DNA of 64,000 bases, taken from positions 44,826,001 to 44,890,000 of the forward strand of contig OZ024750.1 in the NCBI GenBank assembly GCA_964016885.1, given 5' to 3'. Of this stretch, positions 2,673 through 38,639 are shown piece by piece. This stretch comes from Eledone cirrhosa (taxonomy: Eukaryota). Position 1 is the stretch's first letter. The number at the start of each line of letters is the position of its first letter. A program made the translations under genes and the position numbers. The notes beneath the pieces were generated by a model. That model was not told where the DNA came from, made no database searches, and was given only the letters and a program-made list of their open reading frames with translations.

Positions 2673-2868
2673 GGAATTTTACCCGCCCTATATATATATA
2701 TATATATATATTGGAATAAATGCTCTGAAATAGCGATATATATGTGAATATAGACATAGAATATTCGAAAATATTCTGTATGTTTATAATAAACATTTTG
2801 AAGACCCAATCGCTATAGAATAGAATACGTCACGTATTACAATTAGATTCTCGACAAAAGCAAGGGAA

Positions 2869-2911
2869 GTAATCTACGCGTTTCATTCTTGTTAGAAATC
2901 ATCAGGACTAC
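2869..2911 (-). ncRNA. Minimal type I hammerhead ribozyme (first of 12 minus-strand copies, period 310, last at 6279-6321)
   Basis: Minus strand reads GUAGUC-CUGAUGA-UUUCU AACA AGAAU-GAAA-CGCG-UA|GAUUAC. Stem I is GUAGUC/GAUUAC, stem II is UUCU/AGAA, stem III is the palindrome ACGCGU, and the cleavage triplet is GUA. Confidence 0.88.
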
Positions 2912-5900
2912 ATATCCAGTGCTTTTATCGAGAATGACACAGCTAGAGACTTATAGAATACTTAGCTGTGTACAGGAACTGGTTTGAAAGAGCGGTTGCC
3001 GGTCCGGCAGAAATTAGAAATTGGAATAAATGCTCTGAAATAGCGATATATATGTGAATATAGACATAGAATATTCGAAAATATTCTGTATGTTTATAAT
3101 AAACATTTTGAAGACCCAATCGCTATAGAATAGAATACGTCACGTATTACAATTAGATTCTCGACAAAAGCAAGGGAAGTAATCTACGCGTTTCATTCTT
3201 GTTAGAAATCATCAGGACTACATATCCAGTGCTTTTATCGAGAATGACACAGCTAGAGACTTATAGAATACTTAGCTGTGTACAGGAACTGGTTTGAAAG
3301 AGCGGTTGCCGGTCCGGCAGAAATTAGAAATTGGAATAAATGCTCTGAAATAGCGATATATATGTGAATATAGACATAGAATATTCGAAAATATTCTGTA
3401 TGTTTATAATAAACATTTTGAAGACCCAATCGCTATAGAATAGAATACGTCACGTATTACAATTAGATTCTCGACAAAAGCAAGGGAAGTAATCTACGCG
3501 TTTCATTCTTGTTAGAAATCATCAGGACTACATATCCAGTGCTTTTATCGAGAATGACACAGCTAGAGACTTATAGAATACTTAGCTGTGTACAGGAACT
3601 GGTTTGAAAGAGCGGTTGCCGGTCCGGCAGAAATTAGAAATTGGAATAAATGCTCTGAAATAGCGATATATATGTGAATATAGACATAGAATATTCGAAA
3701 ATATTCTGTATGTTTATAATAAACATTTTGAAGACCCAATCGCTATAGAATAGAATACGTCACGTATTACAATTAGATTCTCGGCAAAAGCAAGGGAAGT
3801 AATCTACGCGTTTCATTCTTGTTAGAAATCATCAGGACTACATATCCAGTGCTTTTATCGAGAATGACACAGCTAGAGACTTATAGAATACTTAGCTGTG
3901 TACAGGAACTGGTTTGAAAGAGCGGTTGCCGGTCCGGCAGAAATTAGAAATTGGAATAAATGCTCTGAAATAGCGATATATATGTGAATATAGACATAGA
4001 ATATTCGAAAATATTCTGTATGTTTATAATAAACATTTTGAAGACCCAATCGCTATAGAATAGAATACGTCACGTATTACAATTAGATTCTCGACAAAAG
4101 CAAGGGAAGTAATCTACGCGTTTCATTCTTGTTAGAAATCATCAGGACTACATATCCAGTGCTTTTATCGAGAATGACACAGCTAGAGACTTATAGAATA
4201 CTTAGCTGTGTACAGGAACTGGTTTGAAAGAGCGGTTGCCGGTCCGGCAGAAATTAGAAATTGGAATAAATGCTCTGAAATAGCGATATATATGTGAATA
4301 TAGACATAGAATATTCGAAAATATTCTGTATGTTTATAATAAACATTTTGAAGACCCAATCGCTATAGAATAGAATACGTCACGTATTACAATTAGATTC
4401 TCGACAAAAGCAAGGGAAGTAATCTACGCGTTTCATTCTTGTTAGAAATCATCAGGACTACATATCCAGTGCTTTTATCGAGAATGACACAGCTAGAGAC
4501 TTATAGAATACTTAGCTGTGTACAGGAACTGGTTTGAAAGAGCGGTTGCCGGTCCGGCAGAAATTAGAAATTGGAATAAATGCTCTGAAATAGCGATATA
4601 TATGTGAATATAGACATAGAATATTCGAAAATATTCTGTATGTTTATAATAAACATTTTGAAGACCCAATCGCTATAGAATAGAATACGTCACGTATTAC
4701 AATTAGATTCTCGACAAAAGCAAGGGAAGTAATCTACGCGTTTCATTCTTGTTAGAAATCATCAGGACTACATATCCAGTGCTTTTATCGAGAATGACAC
4801 AGCTAGAGACTTATAGAATACTTAGCTGTGTACAGGAACTGGTTTGAAAGAGCGGTTGCCGGTCCGGCAGAAATTAGAAATTGGAATAAATGCTCTGAAA
4901 TAGCGATATATATGTGAATATAGACATAGAATATTCGAAAATATTCTGTATGTTTATAATAAACATTTTGAAGACCCAATCGCTATAGAATAGAATACGT
5001 CACGTATTACAATTAGATTCTCGACAAAAGCAAGGGAAGTAATCTACGCGTTTCATTCTTGTTAGAAATCATCAGGACTACATATCCAGTGCTTTTATCG
5101 AGAATGACACAGCTAGAGACTTATAGAATACTTAGCTGTGTACAGGAACTGGTTTGAAAGAGCGGTTGCCGGTCCGGCAGAAATTAGAAATTGGAATAAA
5201 TGCTCTGAAATAGCGATATATATGTGAATATAGACATAGAATATTCGAAAATATTCTGTATGTTTATAATAAACATTTTGAAGACCCAATCGCTATAGAA
5301 TAGAATACGTCACGTATTACAATTAGATTCTCGACAAAAGCAAGGGAAGTAATCTACGCGTTTCATTATTGTTAGAAATCATCAGGACTACATATCCAGT
5401 GCTTTTATCGAGAATGACACAGCTAGAGACTTATAGAATACTTAGCTGTGTACAGGAACTGGTTTGAAAGAGCGGTTGCCGGTCCGGCAGAAATTAGAAA
5501 TTGGAATAAATGCTCTGAAATAGCGATATATATGTGAATATAGACATAGAATATTCGAAAATATTCTGTATGTTTATAATAAACATTTTGAAGACCCAAT
5601 CGCTATAGAATAGAATACGTCACGTATTACAATTAGATTCTCGACAAAAGCAAGGGAAGTAATCTACGCGTTTCATTCTTGTTAGAAATCATCAGGACTA
5701 CATATCCAGTGCTTTTATCGAGAATGACACAGCTAGAGACTTATAGAATACTTAGCTGTGTACAGGAACTGGTTTGAAAGAGCGGTTGCCGGTCCGGCAG
5801 AAATTAGAAATTGGAATAAATGCTCTGAAATAGCGATATATATGTGAATATAGACATAGAATATTCGAAAATATTCTGTATGTTTATAATAAACATTTTG

Positions 5901-6617
5901 AAGACCCAATCGCTATAGAATAGAATACGTCACGTATTACAATTAGATTCTCGACAAAAGCAAGGGAAGTAATCTACGCGTTTCATTCTTGTTAGAAATC
6001 ATCAGGACTACATATCCAGTGCTTTTATCGAGAATGACACAGCTAGAGACTTATAGAATACTTAGCTGTGTACAGGAACTGGTTTGAAAGAGCGGTTGCC
6101 GGTCCGGCAGAAATTAGAAATTGGAATAAATGCTCTGAAATAGCGATATATATGTGAATATAGACATAGAATATTCGAAAATATTCTGTATGTTTATAAT
6201 AAACATTTTGAAGACCCAATCGCTATAGAATAGAATACGTCACGTATTACAATTAGATTCTCGACAAAAGCAAGGGAAGTAATCTACGCGTTTCATTCTT
6301 GTTAGAAATCATCAGGACTACATATCCAGTGCTTTTATCGAGAATGACACAGCTAGAGACTTATAGAATACTTAGCTGTGTACAGGAACTGGTTTGAAAG
6401 AGCGGTTGCCGGTCCGGCAGAAATTAGAAATTGGAATAAATGCTCTGAAATAGCGATATATATGTGAATATAGACATAGAATATTCGAAAATATTCTGTA
6501 TGTTTATAATAAACATTTTGAAGACCCAATCGCTATAGAATAGAATACGTCACGTATTACAATTAGATTCTCGACAAAAGCAAGGGAAGTAATCTACGCG
6601 TTTCATTCACTGGATAT

Positions 6618-6660
6618 GTAGTCCTGATGATTTCTAACAAGAATGAAACGCGTAGATTAC
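6618..6660 (+). ncRNA. Minimal type I hammerhead ribozyme in the inverted arm (also 6928-6970 and 7238-7280)
   Basis: gtagtc CTGATGA tttctaacaagaat GAAA cgcg TA gattac, with predicted cleavage after 6654. In full units stem I extends by 16 bp (attctcgataaaagca / tgcttttgtcgagaat) beyond an internal loop. Confidence 0.88.
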
Positions 6661-36920: not shown

Positions 36921-37470
36921 TAATTGTTTCTACGAAAGGCACAAGGCCAGCAATTTAGAAGGAGGGGAAAGTCGATTAAATCGACCCCATTGCATTACTG
37001 GTACTTTGTTTTATCAACCCCCGTAGGGATGAAAGGCAAAGCTAACCATCGATGACAATAACAACAACAACAACAACAGCAACAACAACAAAAGATAAAA
37101 TAATTGTTTCTACTTTTGGCACATGGCCAGCAATTAACCAGTACATTACTGGTACTTTATTTTATCGACACCGTATGGATGAAAGGCAAAGTTAACCTCG
37201 GCGGGATTTGAACTCAGATCATAAAGGGACGCAACTATGCTGGAAAGCATGGCCGACCTTCTACCGATACTGCCAATTGACCAATAAAAGATAAAATAAT
37301 GATTTCTAATATAGGCACAAGGCCAGCAATTTTGGATTAGGGGAAAGTCAATTAAATCGATCCCATACTGTTGCTTTATTTTATCCACCCTGTAATCATG
37401 AAAGGTAAAGCTAAAGATATAATATTTGTTTCTACTTTTGGCACAAGGCCAGCACATCATCCAGTACATT
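36920..37470 (-). mobile_element. Cluster of four SINE copies or fragments
   Basis: Copies near 36920-37048, 37100-37275 (TSD aaaagataaaataat), 37298-37415 and 37422-37470. Confidence 0.83.
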
Positions 37471-37537
37471 AGATACACGTACACTATCCAGTTGTTTTTA
37501 TATACTTAGAAGTGACCAGGATACTAATAATTCTTCA

Positions 37538-37612
37538 CCCGCTGATGAGCTAGAATTTTGGTATTTCTCTTCACAAATAATATTGCGAACAGTATTATCC
37601 AAACTACCCGGG
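37538..37612 (+). ncRNA. Degenerate hammerhead remnant; the host element runs 3' into (TA)n at ~37790
   Basis: cccg CTGATGA gc...gc GAAC agt...act acc cggg. Stem I and the base of stem II pair, but GAAA and the cleavage triplet are mutated. Confidence 0.5.
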
Positions 37613-38639
37613 GGATTGTTAGTTACCACAATTCTGGTTTGTATTTATTTCCTTGATTTATTCTTAAATTGAGTCTGGTAAACCCCATTGTCTGTAGTTA
37701 GTGTTCTCTTCCCCTTAGCAAATCTGGTCCCTTACGATTTGAACACATATATGTATATGGCTGTGATCGTTTTTTCTTTTTTGTTTAGTTATATATATAT
37801 ATATATATATATATATATATATATATATATATATATATATACATATATATATATATACCTATATATATATATATATATATATATATACATACATATATAT
37901 ATATATATATATACATACATATATATATATATATATATATATATATATATATATATATATATATATATATATATATATATATATATATATACGTACGTCT
38001 GTATGTATCTTATCTGCGATATTTTGTACATGATTGTATGCGTTTGCATCTATGCATAGATGCATAGATGCATAGATGTGTGTGTGCGTGTATGTGTACG
38101 TTCATGTTATTCGCTATTGTATACACATACATGTGTTTATGATACAAACACACAAACACGATTACCTATACATAGGCAGACACAACCTCTACACGTCTAA
38201 ATTATTCATCTGGTGATCTGTTTCATCTTTCGCTATGTATCTACAACAGATCTGTAGAAATAACTCGACAATTGTCTTTATCGTCAATAAGTTCTACTTG
38301 TGAACATATATAGATTTCTACTTGGAAACATTCCTGGTGGTGTTAGTGGTAGTGGAGGTAGGGTGATGGTGGTGGTGGTGGTGGTGGTGGTGGAGTTGTT
38401 CTGTAGGCGAGTGTGTTTGTATGTGTGTGTGTTGATGGTGTTATCATTGATGTTATGATGTTGGTGGGATTGTAGGTGGTGTTGGTGGTAGTAGTAGTGG
38501 TGGTGTTAGTGGTAGTGATAATGGTGGTGTTAGTAGTAGTGGAGGTAGAGTGGGAGGAGTTTTGTTCTGTAGGGGATGTGTGTGTGTCTGTGTGTGTGTT
38601 GATGGTGTTATCATTGCTGTTATGATATTGGTGGTGTTG

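What the first reader, a model, noticed from the sequence alone, without database searches (positions are those of the whole stretch)
2711..37790. System of (TA)n-targeted, head-to-head hammerhead-ribozyme retroelements in at least six families
Seen: the non-repetitive-looking islands between TA tracts (2711-7405, 7430-7702, 10761-11153, 11172-11366, 11958-12154, 18757-19345, 21177-21530, 23800-24080, 31526-31902, 31922-32935, ~37500-37790) carry type I hammerhead folds. Their stem sequences differ but still pair, which amounts to natural covariation. In every two-armed case the ribozyme-sense strand is minus on the left arm and plus on the right, so both 3' ends face outward, nearly always into (TA)n. 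Established: minimal type I hammerheads with palindromic stem III mark Penelope-like element repeats and non-autonomous retrozymes, and Penelope insertions can form inverted structures. Inference: this is a diverse non-coding ribozyme mobilome, copied in trans by a Penelope-type RT at TA microsatellites. It appears very dense (about 11 insertions in 35 kb). I cannot verify whether it is already described for cephalopods.
Basis: partly seen in the sequence, partly recalled or inferred. Interest (0 to 1): 0.92.

Follow-up and report, generated by a model that had tools for sequence, protein, structure and literature searches.

The report
Penelope-element ribozyme insertions in TA repeats
These self-cleaving-RNA motifs are real, but most are stubs of ordinary protein-coding Penelope-type jumping genes and only three families are non-coding repeats; all share one two-armed insertion pattern that hints at how this class of elements copies itself.

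Summary
The hammerheads are real: 9 descriptor hits versus a mean of 0.03 in 200 shuffles. Six of the 11 islands pass; the copies at 7430, 11958 and 37500 are damaged and 31526 lacks the core. The geometry holds genome-wide: arms diverge in 93 of 99 pairs in families B-F/H, 18 of 18 in A and 14 of 14 in G; 257 of 265 ends abut TA versus 11% background. The interpretation needs splitting. Families B-F are 3' ends of protein-coding Penelope-like elements (Hydra- and Neptune-type motifs; intact ORFs exist). Only A (310 nt), G (591 nt) and H (520 nt) are non-coding retrozymes. Most ingredients are published. Not found in my searches: retrozymes carrying the Penelope long-end/short-end signature; variants fixed across both arms, suggesting a circular monomer template; arms that are not copies of each other, suggesting twin priming; short arms ending about 30 nt below a TATA box, suggesting run-off at the transcription start. 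Cleavage and expression were not tested.

The parts
2711..6608 (-). Family A retrozyme, left arm: 12.6 tandem 310-nt non-coding units, ribozyme sense on minus, long end (unit position 165 after the cleavage site) at the TA tract
6608..7405 (+). Family A right arm: 2.6 units, short end (about unit position 131); 1-nt overlap at the junction
7430..7700 (-). Family B (Hydra-type PLE end), single arm, long end, 5' end at C3-86; core U4C, probably inactive
10761..11153 (.). Family C (Neptune-type PLE end), diverging arms, short end left, long end right, two U3-A8 hammerheads (C3 at 10866 minus, 10986 plus), 39-nt duplication at the junction
11172..11366 (.). Family D (Hydra-type by one locus), diverging arms short/long, joined just 5' of the core; core shares 26 of 28 nt with family A
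11958..12154 (.). Family C: minus arm (C3-43 to short end) plus a plus arm holding the tail only
18317..18527 (.).
18757..18965 (-). Family E (Hydra-type PLE end), left arm, long end, intact hammerhead (C3 at 18944)
19013..19345 (+). Family E right arm from C3-60 to the short end, interrupted at about 19075-19239 by a dispersed SINE-like repeat
21177..21530 (.). Family B near-perfect palindrome, two intact hammerheads (21272 minus, 21434 plus); exception with two short ends
23836..24075 (.). Old E-related copy: tail fragment on minus, decayed hammerhead on plus (C3 at 23980)
31527..31902 (.). Family F (Hydra-type PLE end), short arm left and long arm right; no catalytic core in this copy
31922..32935 (.). 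Family G retrozyme (591-nt non-coding unit): minus arm to the short end (unit position 80), plus arm to the long end (about 245), junction at 32475, two U3-A8 hammerheads with a 10-nt palindromic stem III
37481..37790 (+). Family H retrozyme (520-nt non-coding period), single arm, short end, ribozyme mutated

Best explanation
The islands are insertions made by Penelope-like-element (PLE) RT/GIY-YIG proteins at (TA)n. SHOWN: five families (B-F) are the hammerhead-bearing ends (pLTRs) of coding PLEs, with Hydra-type motifs in B, D, E, F and Neptune-type in C. Three families (A, G, H) are non-coding tandem retrozymes with the same footprint: two diverging arms, two fixed outer ends per family, one long and one short end per insertion, and variable inner ends joined with 0-3 nt of microhomology. 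INFERRED: the endonuclease opens both strands of a TA tract; two RTs, probably a dimer, prime from the two DNA ends at two internal start sites of the RNA; the two cDNAs are then joined (about 0.7). On a linear PLE mRNA the RTs start near the 5' end and run off at the transcription start, leaving short promoterless palindromes (about 0.65). On a ribozyme-cut, circularised retrozyme monomer they roll round, giving arrays of up to 18 units with one haplotype on both arms (about 0.6). Mobilisation of A, G and H in trans by a PLE protein is about 0.9; which PLE does it is not established.
For: Polarity and ends: 93 divergent versus 6 convergent pairs in 166 loci, 86 of the 93 long+short; five of the six convergent pairs have TA tracts between them, so are probably neighbours. 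A: 18 of 18 two-armed insertions divergent, 16 of 16 with both ends visible long+short. G: 14 of 14 divergent, 13 long+short. I: 26 of 27 divergent. ORF links: hammerhead-ORF-hammerhead units of 4136 nt (B) and 3794 nt (E); GIY-YIG ends 825-844 nt before C3 in four F loci and about 1050 nt before C3 in C; D linked at one locus. Intact ORFs: 44 of 58 full-length rows without stops for a B-related Hydra-type element; 31 of 148 rows with a 775-aa open frame for C. Independent arms: in 12 of 60 directly joined long+short pairs the short arm reaches more than 15 nt further 5' than the long arm; only 5 of 32 A/G junctions are near-symmetric; overlap of 1 nt or more in 24 of 29 (47% expected). Transcription start: C, D and E each have one TATAWAW in 300 nt upstream, about 30 nt above a pile-up of 5' ends (24 of 50, 44 of 53, 22 of 46; bystander copies 3 of 4, 7 of 9, 3 of 5). 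Monomer bottleneck: in 244 A unit pieces from 21 insertions, 12 variants are fixed across an insertion and 53 are sporadic (49 in one unit, 4 in two), none in between; fixed variants inside the ribozyme fall only at tolerant sites, the 6 sporadic ones hit G5, stem II or stem III. In vitro precedent: two internal RT start sites bound the tail, both strands are extended, a dimer is predicted (PMC11167929).
Against: No cleavage or RNA data: no RNA run was listed. Single hammerheads do not fold better than shuffles (z +0.5 to -2.0). The PAc ribozyme was dispensable for insertion in vitro and 8 of 9 Xenopus retrozyme dimers did not cleave. Exceptions to long+short exist: window 21177-21530 and the element in L261 are short+short, L219 is long+long. 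B has no consensus TATA and its bystander copies do not pile up; the F pile-up is about 40 nt below its TATA; family I piles up inside loop II, which the model does not explain. Queries for B, C and D began near the pile-ups, so the focal counts are biased and the bystander sets are small. A 5' ends cluster mildly (10 of 36 in 25 nt, p 0.03), which a featureless circle would not predict. No autonomous partner matching A, G or H was found. Loci were the top-scoring hits, so young intact copies are over-represented.
Confidence: 0.72

Rival explanations
1. Fold-back or self-priming: one cDNA (or an antisense template) hairpins on itself and is copied, and the endonuclease trims the tail from one arm (published model for head-to-head PLE inversions).
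For: PMC3846280 proposes self-priming from palindromes at junctions; PMC8557442 attributes the tail to endonuclease resolution. 35 of 60 B-F pairs have similar 5' ends; a few junctions are palindromic.
Against: In 12 of 60 pairs neither arm is contained in the other; 27 of 32 A/G junctions are asymmetric; the short-ended arm is the longer one in 6 of 16 A insertions. Similar 5' ends are expected if both cDNAs stop at one transcription start.
Confidence: 0.12
2. The A and G arrays were inserted as one or two units, or copied from linear multimeric transcripts, and expanded or homogenised afterwards by unequal crossover; the ribozyme is a passenger.
For: Li et al. 2026 favour local satellite-type amplification; ribozyme mutants did not block PAc insertion; the A 5' end cluster could mark a linear transcript start.
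Against: Private variants are fixed on both inverted arms; only 4 of 53 sporadic variants occur twice; within-arm divergence is 0.15% in arrays of up to 18 units; inherited ribozyme variants are all tolerated ones.
Confidence: 0.25
3. One reading: all islands are a non-coding ribozyme mobilome copied in trans.
For: No PLE ORF lies in the window (no window hit); A, G and H are non-coding tandem units.
Against: B-F run into RT/GIY-YIG ORFs in longer copies; most short arms of C, D and E lack the upstream TATA and show no tandem unit.
Confidence: 0.05
4. Assembly artefact (long-read fold-back chimeras) or MITE-type DNA transposons.
For: Long perfect inverted repeats are a known long-read artefact (own knowledge); Rfam returns only hairpin look-alikes.
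Against: Outer ends are fixed and asymmetric, inner ends differ, polarity is one-way on many chromosomes; contigs of run X1 show TA joined at the short end of A; arms carry independent mutations and a nested insert.
Confidence: 0.02

Closest known systems
Hydra-clade Penelope-like elements (Craig et al. 2021, PMC8557442; Hydra-1_Obim in its supplement)
   Same: C-terminal GIY-YIG without CCHH, DKT, CxCX5C linker, hammerheads, (TA)n targeting, inverted 5'-truncated arm, one-sided tail.
   Different: Units of 3.7-4.1 kb rather than under 3 kb; RWR for RWK; tails of about 70-165 nt rather than 30-40; clear pLTRs, whereas the Octopus entry is noted as having none.
Neptune-clade PLEs
   Same: Family C ORF has DKG, CX2-5CxxC linker, two cysteines inside GIY-YIG, C-terminal endonuclease, microsatellite targeting.
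   Different: U3-A8 hammerhead about 1 kb after the stop codon, tail about 62 nt; many stubs ending at one 5' position.
Metazoan non-LTR retrozymes (Cervera and de la Pena 2020; review PMC7761336; Li et al. 2026 bioRxiv 10.64898/2026.07.22.740005)
   Same: Non-coding tandem units of 310-591 nt, one type I hammerhead per unit, structured predicted circles (A z -3.6, G z -6.5; H sense only -1.8).
   Different: Here the arrays are two-armed, bounded by two fixed internal positions and inserted in (TA)n. The review says animal retrozymes show no motif pointing to their autonomous partner; these carry the PLE integration footprint.
PAc (Poseidon, Anolis) in vitro system (Frangieh et al. 2024, PMC11167929)
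   Same: Two internal RT start sites bounding the tail, AT-rich target, both strands extended, predicted dimer.
   Different: That study saw no strand difference in start site; here nearly every insertion pairs one long with one short end. In the B-related intact element both sites lie upstream of the ATG.
Minimal PLE hammerheads of Schistosoma and others (Cervera and de la Pena 2014, PMC4209133)
   Same: U3-A8 variant, palindromic stem III, opposite-strand pairs 100-700 bp apart read as truncated PLEs; circular RNA proposed as template.
   Different: Several families here have long stem II (up to about 80 nt) or a true hairpin stem III (D, H, I).

Membership tests
EN+ Penelope-like element (B-F) | Single ORF with RT and C-terminal GIY-YIG | tested here: met
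   In other copies, not in the window; Pfam GIY-YIG E 2.6e-7 for C, no Pfam hit for the four Hydra-type pieces
EN+ Penelope-like element (B-F) | pLTR (partial tandem) containing a type I hammerhead | tested here: met
   B 4136-nt and E 3794-nt units, L252, L259; for C, D and F only the 3' copy was seen
EN+ Penelope-like element (B-F) | Inverted 5'-truncated copy and tail at one end | tested here: met
   tails are longer than the published 30-40 nt
Hydra clade (B, D, E, F) | DKT, CxCX5C, no CCHH, CxxC and CxH motifs | tested here: met
   DKT seen in the B-related and E ORFs, endonuclease motifs in B, D, E, F
Hydra clade (B, D, E, F) | RWK motif | tested here: inconclusive
   RWR in L252; RWK in the relative P0036
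Hydra clade (B, D, E, F) | Generally short, under 3 kb | tested here: not met
   3.7-4.1 kb; the paper says 'generally', so this is soft
Hydra clade (B, D, E, F) | RT phylogeny inside the clade | not tested
   No named reference proteins were on hand; assignment is by motifs only
Neptune clade (C) | DKG, CX2-5CxxC linker, CCHH-type endonuclease at the C terminus | tested here: met
Neptune clade (C) | RT phylogeny | not tested
   No tree built
Non-LTR retrozyme (A, G, H) | Tandem repeats with a type I hammerhead in each unit | tested here: met
   A up to 17.9 units, G up to 5.9; H period 520, about 1.3 units or slightly more seen
Non-LTR retrozyme (A, G, H) | No protein coding | tested here: met
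   Longest ATG ORF 30 aa in A and 75 aa in G; no consistent PLE ORF beside 25 H loci
Non-LTR retrozyme (A, G, H) | Self-cleavage and accumulation as circular RNA | not testable with these tools
   No RNA holder listed; indirect support only
MITE / TIR DNA transposon | Symmetric terminal inverted repeats around a fixed core | tested here: not met
   Ends are asymmetric and the centre differs in every copy

The most novel reading that the evidence does not exclude
Retrozymes A and G record a full in vivo cycle: one ribozyme-cut circular monomer is copied at once by the two subunits of a PLE RT dimer from two fixed start sites 30-165 nt apart, each primed by one side of a (TA)n break and rolling up to 18 turns, with selection keeping the ribozyme functional. 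The same twin priming on linear mRNA explains the head-to-head geometry, the one-sided tail and the mass of short promoterless hammerhead palindromes of PLEs generally.
Probability: 0.4. Interest if true: 0.72.

Novelty: new variant of a known kind. Interest (0 to 1): 0.52.

Why it matters
How PLEs make inverted/tandem insertions with a tail, what their hammerheads do, and whether PLEs mobilise animal retrozymes are named as open questions in PMC8557442, PMC4209133 and PMC7761336. This genome holds very young copies of autonomous elements and retrozymes with one shared footprint, intact Hydra- and Neptune-type ORFs, and exact predicted RT start sites and transcription starts, so the questions become testable with defined substrates. 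It also suggests a large unannotated ribozyme load (order 10^5 motifs if the flank density held genome-wide; those flanks are biased towards TA-rich DNA) and that such palindromes could be misfiled as MITEs.

Tried and rejected
Rfam gave nothing at gathering score and only hairpin look-alikes at E<=10. My first descriptor was too strict (6 hits). Minimum-energy folds of 8 single hammerheads were not significant. PDB sequence search with the intact Hydra-type ORF: 0 hits. No RNA holder listed for A: no evidence either way. A shared tail hexamer GAGYRC occurs in 5 of 10 tails (D, E, F, I, B-related; background 0.04 per 90 nt) but not in A, G, H, C or the B reference, so it does not identify the partner; it was picked by eye. 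A matches D only over the 28-nt core. The PLE ORF beside D in L132/L248 could not be tied to D. I first took family I as ribozyme-free; longer copies show a full hammerhead. junction overlaps were distorted by private variants and were redone. Dropped before counts: duplicate loci L081, L103, L139, L172, L231 and L001-L030. Two of the five long+long pairs (L218, L225) are artefacts of the periodic H unit and were left in the count. Earlier scan notes: nothing returned.
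Full report
SETTING. The window is G000:C10:44826001-44890000 of a 3.0-Gb genome. 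I did not identify the species.

OBSERVATION. Rfam finds nothing at gathering score. A type I descriptor finds 22 hits; with the array collapsed and simple repeats removed there are 9, against a mean of 0.03 (max 1) in 200 shuffles. Six of the 11 islands pass, one (11172) has intact cores with damaged stems, three are mutated (7430, 11958, 37480) and one (31526) lacks the core. Stem sequences differ between families and still pair, but the descriptor demands pairing, so the shuffles and the unrequired palindromic stem III (8 of 9 hits, 0 in shuffles) are the real test. Flanks of other loci give 44 hits in 287 kb, so the window is typical.

FAMILIES. Genome searches returned dispersed copies of every family; only about 40 of 454-2291 candidates were scored each time. 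A is a 310-nt and G a 591-nt tandem unit without ORF; H has a 520-nt period. B and E occur as hammerhead-ORF-hammerhead units of 4136 and 3794 nt. F lies 825-844 nt after a GIY-YIG end in four loci. C lies about 1050 nt after a 775-aa frame. D is linked to an ORF at one locus. Motifs are Hydra-type for B, D, E, F (DKT, CxCX5C, no CCHH) and Neptune-type for C, judged against PMC8557442 section 11; no tree was built. A B-related element (pLTR about 80% identical) has 44 stop-free rows among 58 full-length ones; C has 31 rows with a 775-aa frame among 148, at 97-100% identity; the first in-frame ATG of that frame is late, so a 5' intron or other start is needed (inference). Enzymes able to act in trans are therefore present.

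FOOTPRINT. In 166 loci of B-F and H: 93 divergent pairs, 6 convergent, 67 single arms; 86 divergent pairs have one long and one short end; 257 of 265 ends abut TA against 11% background. Five of the six convergent pairs are 553-1253 nt apart with TA tracts between. A: 18 of 21 insertions two-armed, all divergent, 16 of 16 scorable long+short. G: 14 of 19, all divergent, 13 long+short. Family I: 26 of 27 divergent, 22 long+short. Intact elements show the same layout. Tail lengths are about 30 (A), 62 (C), 75 (D), 90 (B, H), 97 (E) and 165 nt (F, G). Outer ends do not coincide with the cleavage site. Exceptions: window 21177-21530 and L261 short+short, L219 long+long.

MECHANISM, INFERRED. (1) Twin priming. 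In 12 of 60 directly joined pairs the short arm reaches further 5' than the long arm, which has a tail the short arm lacks, so neither is a copy of the other. Of 32 A/G junctions 5 are near-symmetric, 3 have inserted bases, and of the other 29, 24 overlap by at least 1 nt and 13 by at least 2 (47% and 18% expected). This fits two cDNAs primed from the two sides of a TA break at two internal start sites, as PAc does in vitro, better than the self-priming model of PMC3846280. (2) Run-off at the transcription start. C, D and E each have a single TATAWAW in 300 nt upstream, at C3-72, -36 and -95; 5' ends pile up near -43, -6 and -57 to -71 (24 of 50, 44 of 53, 22 of 46), and bystander copies agree (3 of 4, 7 of 9, 3 of 5). 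The short islands would be promoterless abortive copies. B, F and I fit poorly or not at all, and the focal sets are biased. (3) Circular monomer template. Among 244 A unit pieces, variants are either fixed in an insertion, on both arms (12 calls, plus the window's own allele at position 68), or sporadic (53; 49 single, 4 double). Divergence is 0.15% within arms, 0.20% between arms and 0.55% between insertions; for G 0.07, 0.07 and 0.29%. Fixed variants in the ribozyme sit at N7, the unpaired base before stem II, loop II and an A-U to G-U change; the six sporadic ones hit G5, stem II or stem III. Shared haplotypes cannot separate one RNA molecule from one source locus. Against this: a mild A 5' cluster (p 0.03), no RNA data, and published weak or dispensable cleavage.

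LITERATURE SEEN. PMC8557442: passages, sections 11 and 15, supplement rows. PMC11167929: parts 1-2 of 4. bioRxiv 2026.07.22.740005: parts 1-3 of 5; its supplements are closed. PMC4209133: parts 1-2 of 4. PMC7761336, PMC7229834, PMC3846280, PMC13282606: passages only. PMC5785218 is not held; Arkhipova 2006 and Evgen'ev and Arkhipova 2005 were not seen and may already describe more of the geometry. Known from these: pLTR hammerheads, U3-A8 cores, opposite-strand pairs, inverted arm, one-sided tail, (TA)n targeting including Hydra-1_Obim, TATA/Inr in pLTRs, the circular-template proposal, and retrozymes as PLE derivatives. Nine searches returned no paper on cephalopod retrozymes, twin priming in PLEs, transcription-start-bounded stubs or the long/short footprint on retrozymes; the 2026 Octopus vulgaris repeat annotation has 0 occurrences of 'ribozyme' or 'hammerhead' in its main text. 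The library lacks most subscription papers and Repbase/Dfam were not searchable. The SINE label for the nested repeat is recalled, not from a call.

VERDICT. New variant of a known kind; interest 0.52.

Noticed in passing
runs X4, X5, X6 laid on window 2711-3020: Three runs from other coded organisms and studies each hold unit A as one closed 340-nt contig (310 + 30) with 1-2 differences, depth 10-49. This could be a circular RNA, low-level host DNA (diet, contamination) or recent transfer; run kind is not on record.
   Followed up: partly
window 18317-18527; 40 loci: Family I: abundant, U3-A8 hammerhead with hairpin stem III in long copies; most arms start inside loop II (about C3+40), which neither the TATA model nor the cleavage site explains.
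   Followed up: partly
window 19075-19239; also about 1178-1917, 2290-2410, 25200-25390, 35700-35880, 36920-37470: Dispersed SINE-like repeat of about 170-190 nt (recalled as resembling octopus tRNA-SINEs); one copy sits in the E right arm with a roughly 13-nt duplication at the hammerhead core.
   Followed up: no
window 11387-11850: TA-bounded island with two relatives among fetched loci and a short match to family C upstream sequence; possibly another Neptune-type end.
   Followed up: partly
window 48078-48140: TA-flanked repeat with 12 matches in fetched loci; no hammerhead looked for beyond the window scan.
   Followed up: partly
flanks of L055, L060, L076, L088, L116, L161, L198, L232: Further hammerhead families absent from the window; bystander opposite-strand pairs in L055, L062, L122, L161, L228 are all divergent.
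   Followed up: partly
L177 and L184: Two of 28 G inner ends fall at or within 4 nt of the ribozyme cleavage site, as expected if some templates were cleaved linear monomers.
   Followed up: no
L095, L120, L122, L118: Several families are stacked in one TA tract, consistent with repeated targeting; L122 and L050 show short tandem re-priming stutters at junctions.
   Followed up: no
window 38642-47879 and 48715-64000: Two very long GT-rich 24-nt minisatellite arrays (about 387 and 639 copies); also 74-nt (23134-23618), 21-nt (33859-35691) and 27-nt (36037-36837) arrays.
   Followed up: no
L261: Two C elements lie 3912 nt apart with identical ORF starts; a tandem duplication of a whole insertion is possible.
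   Followed up: no
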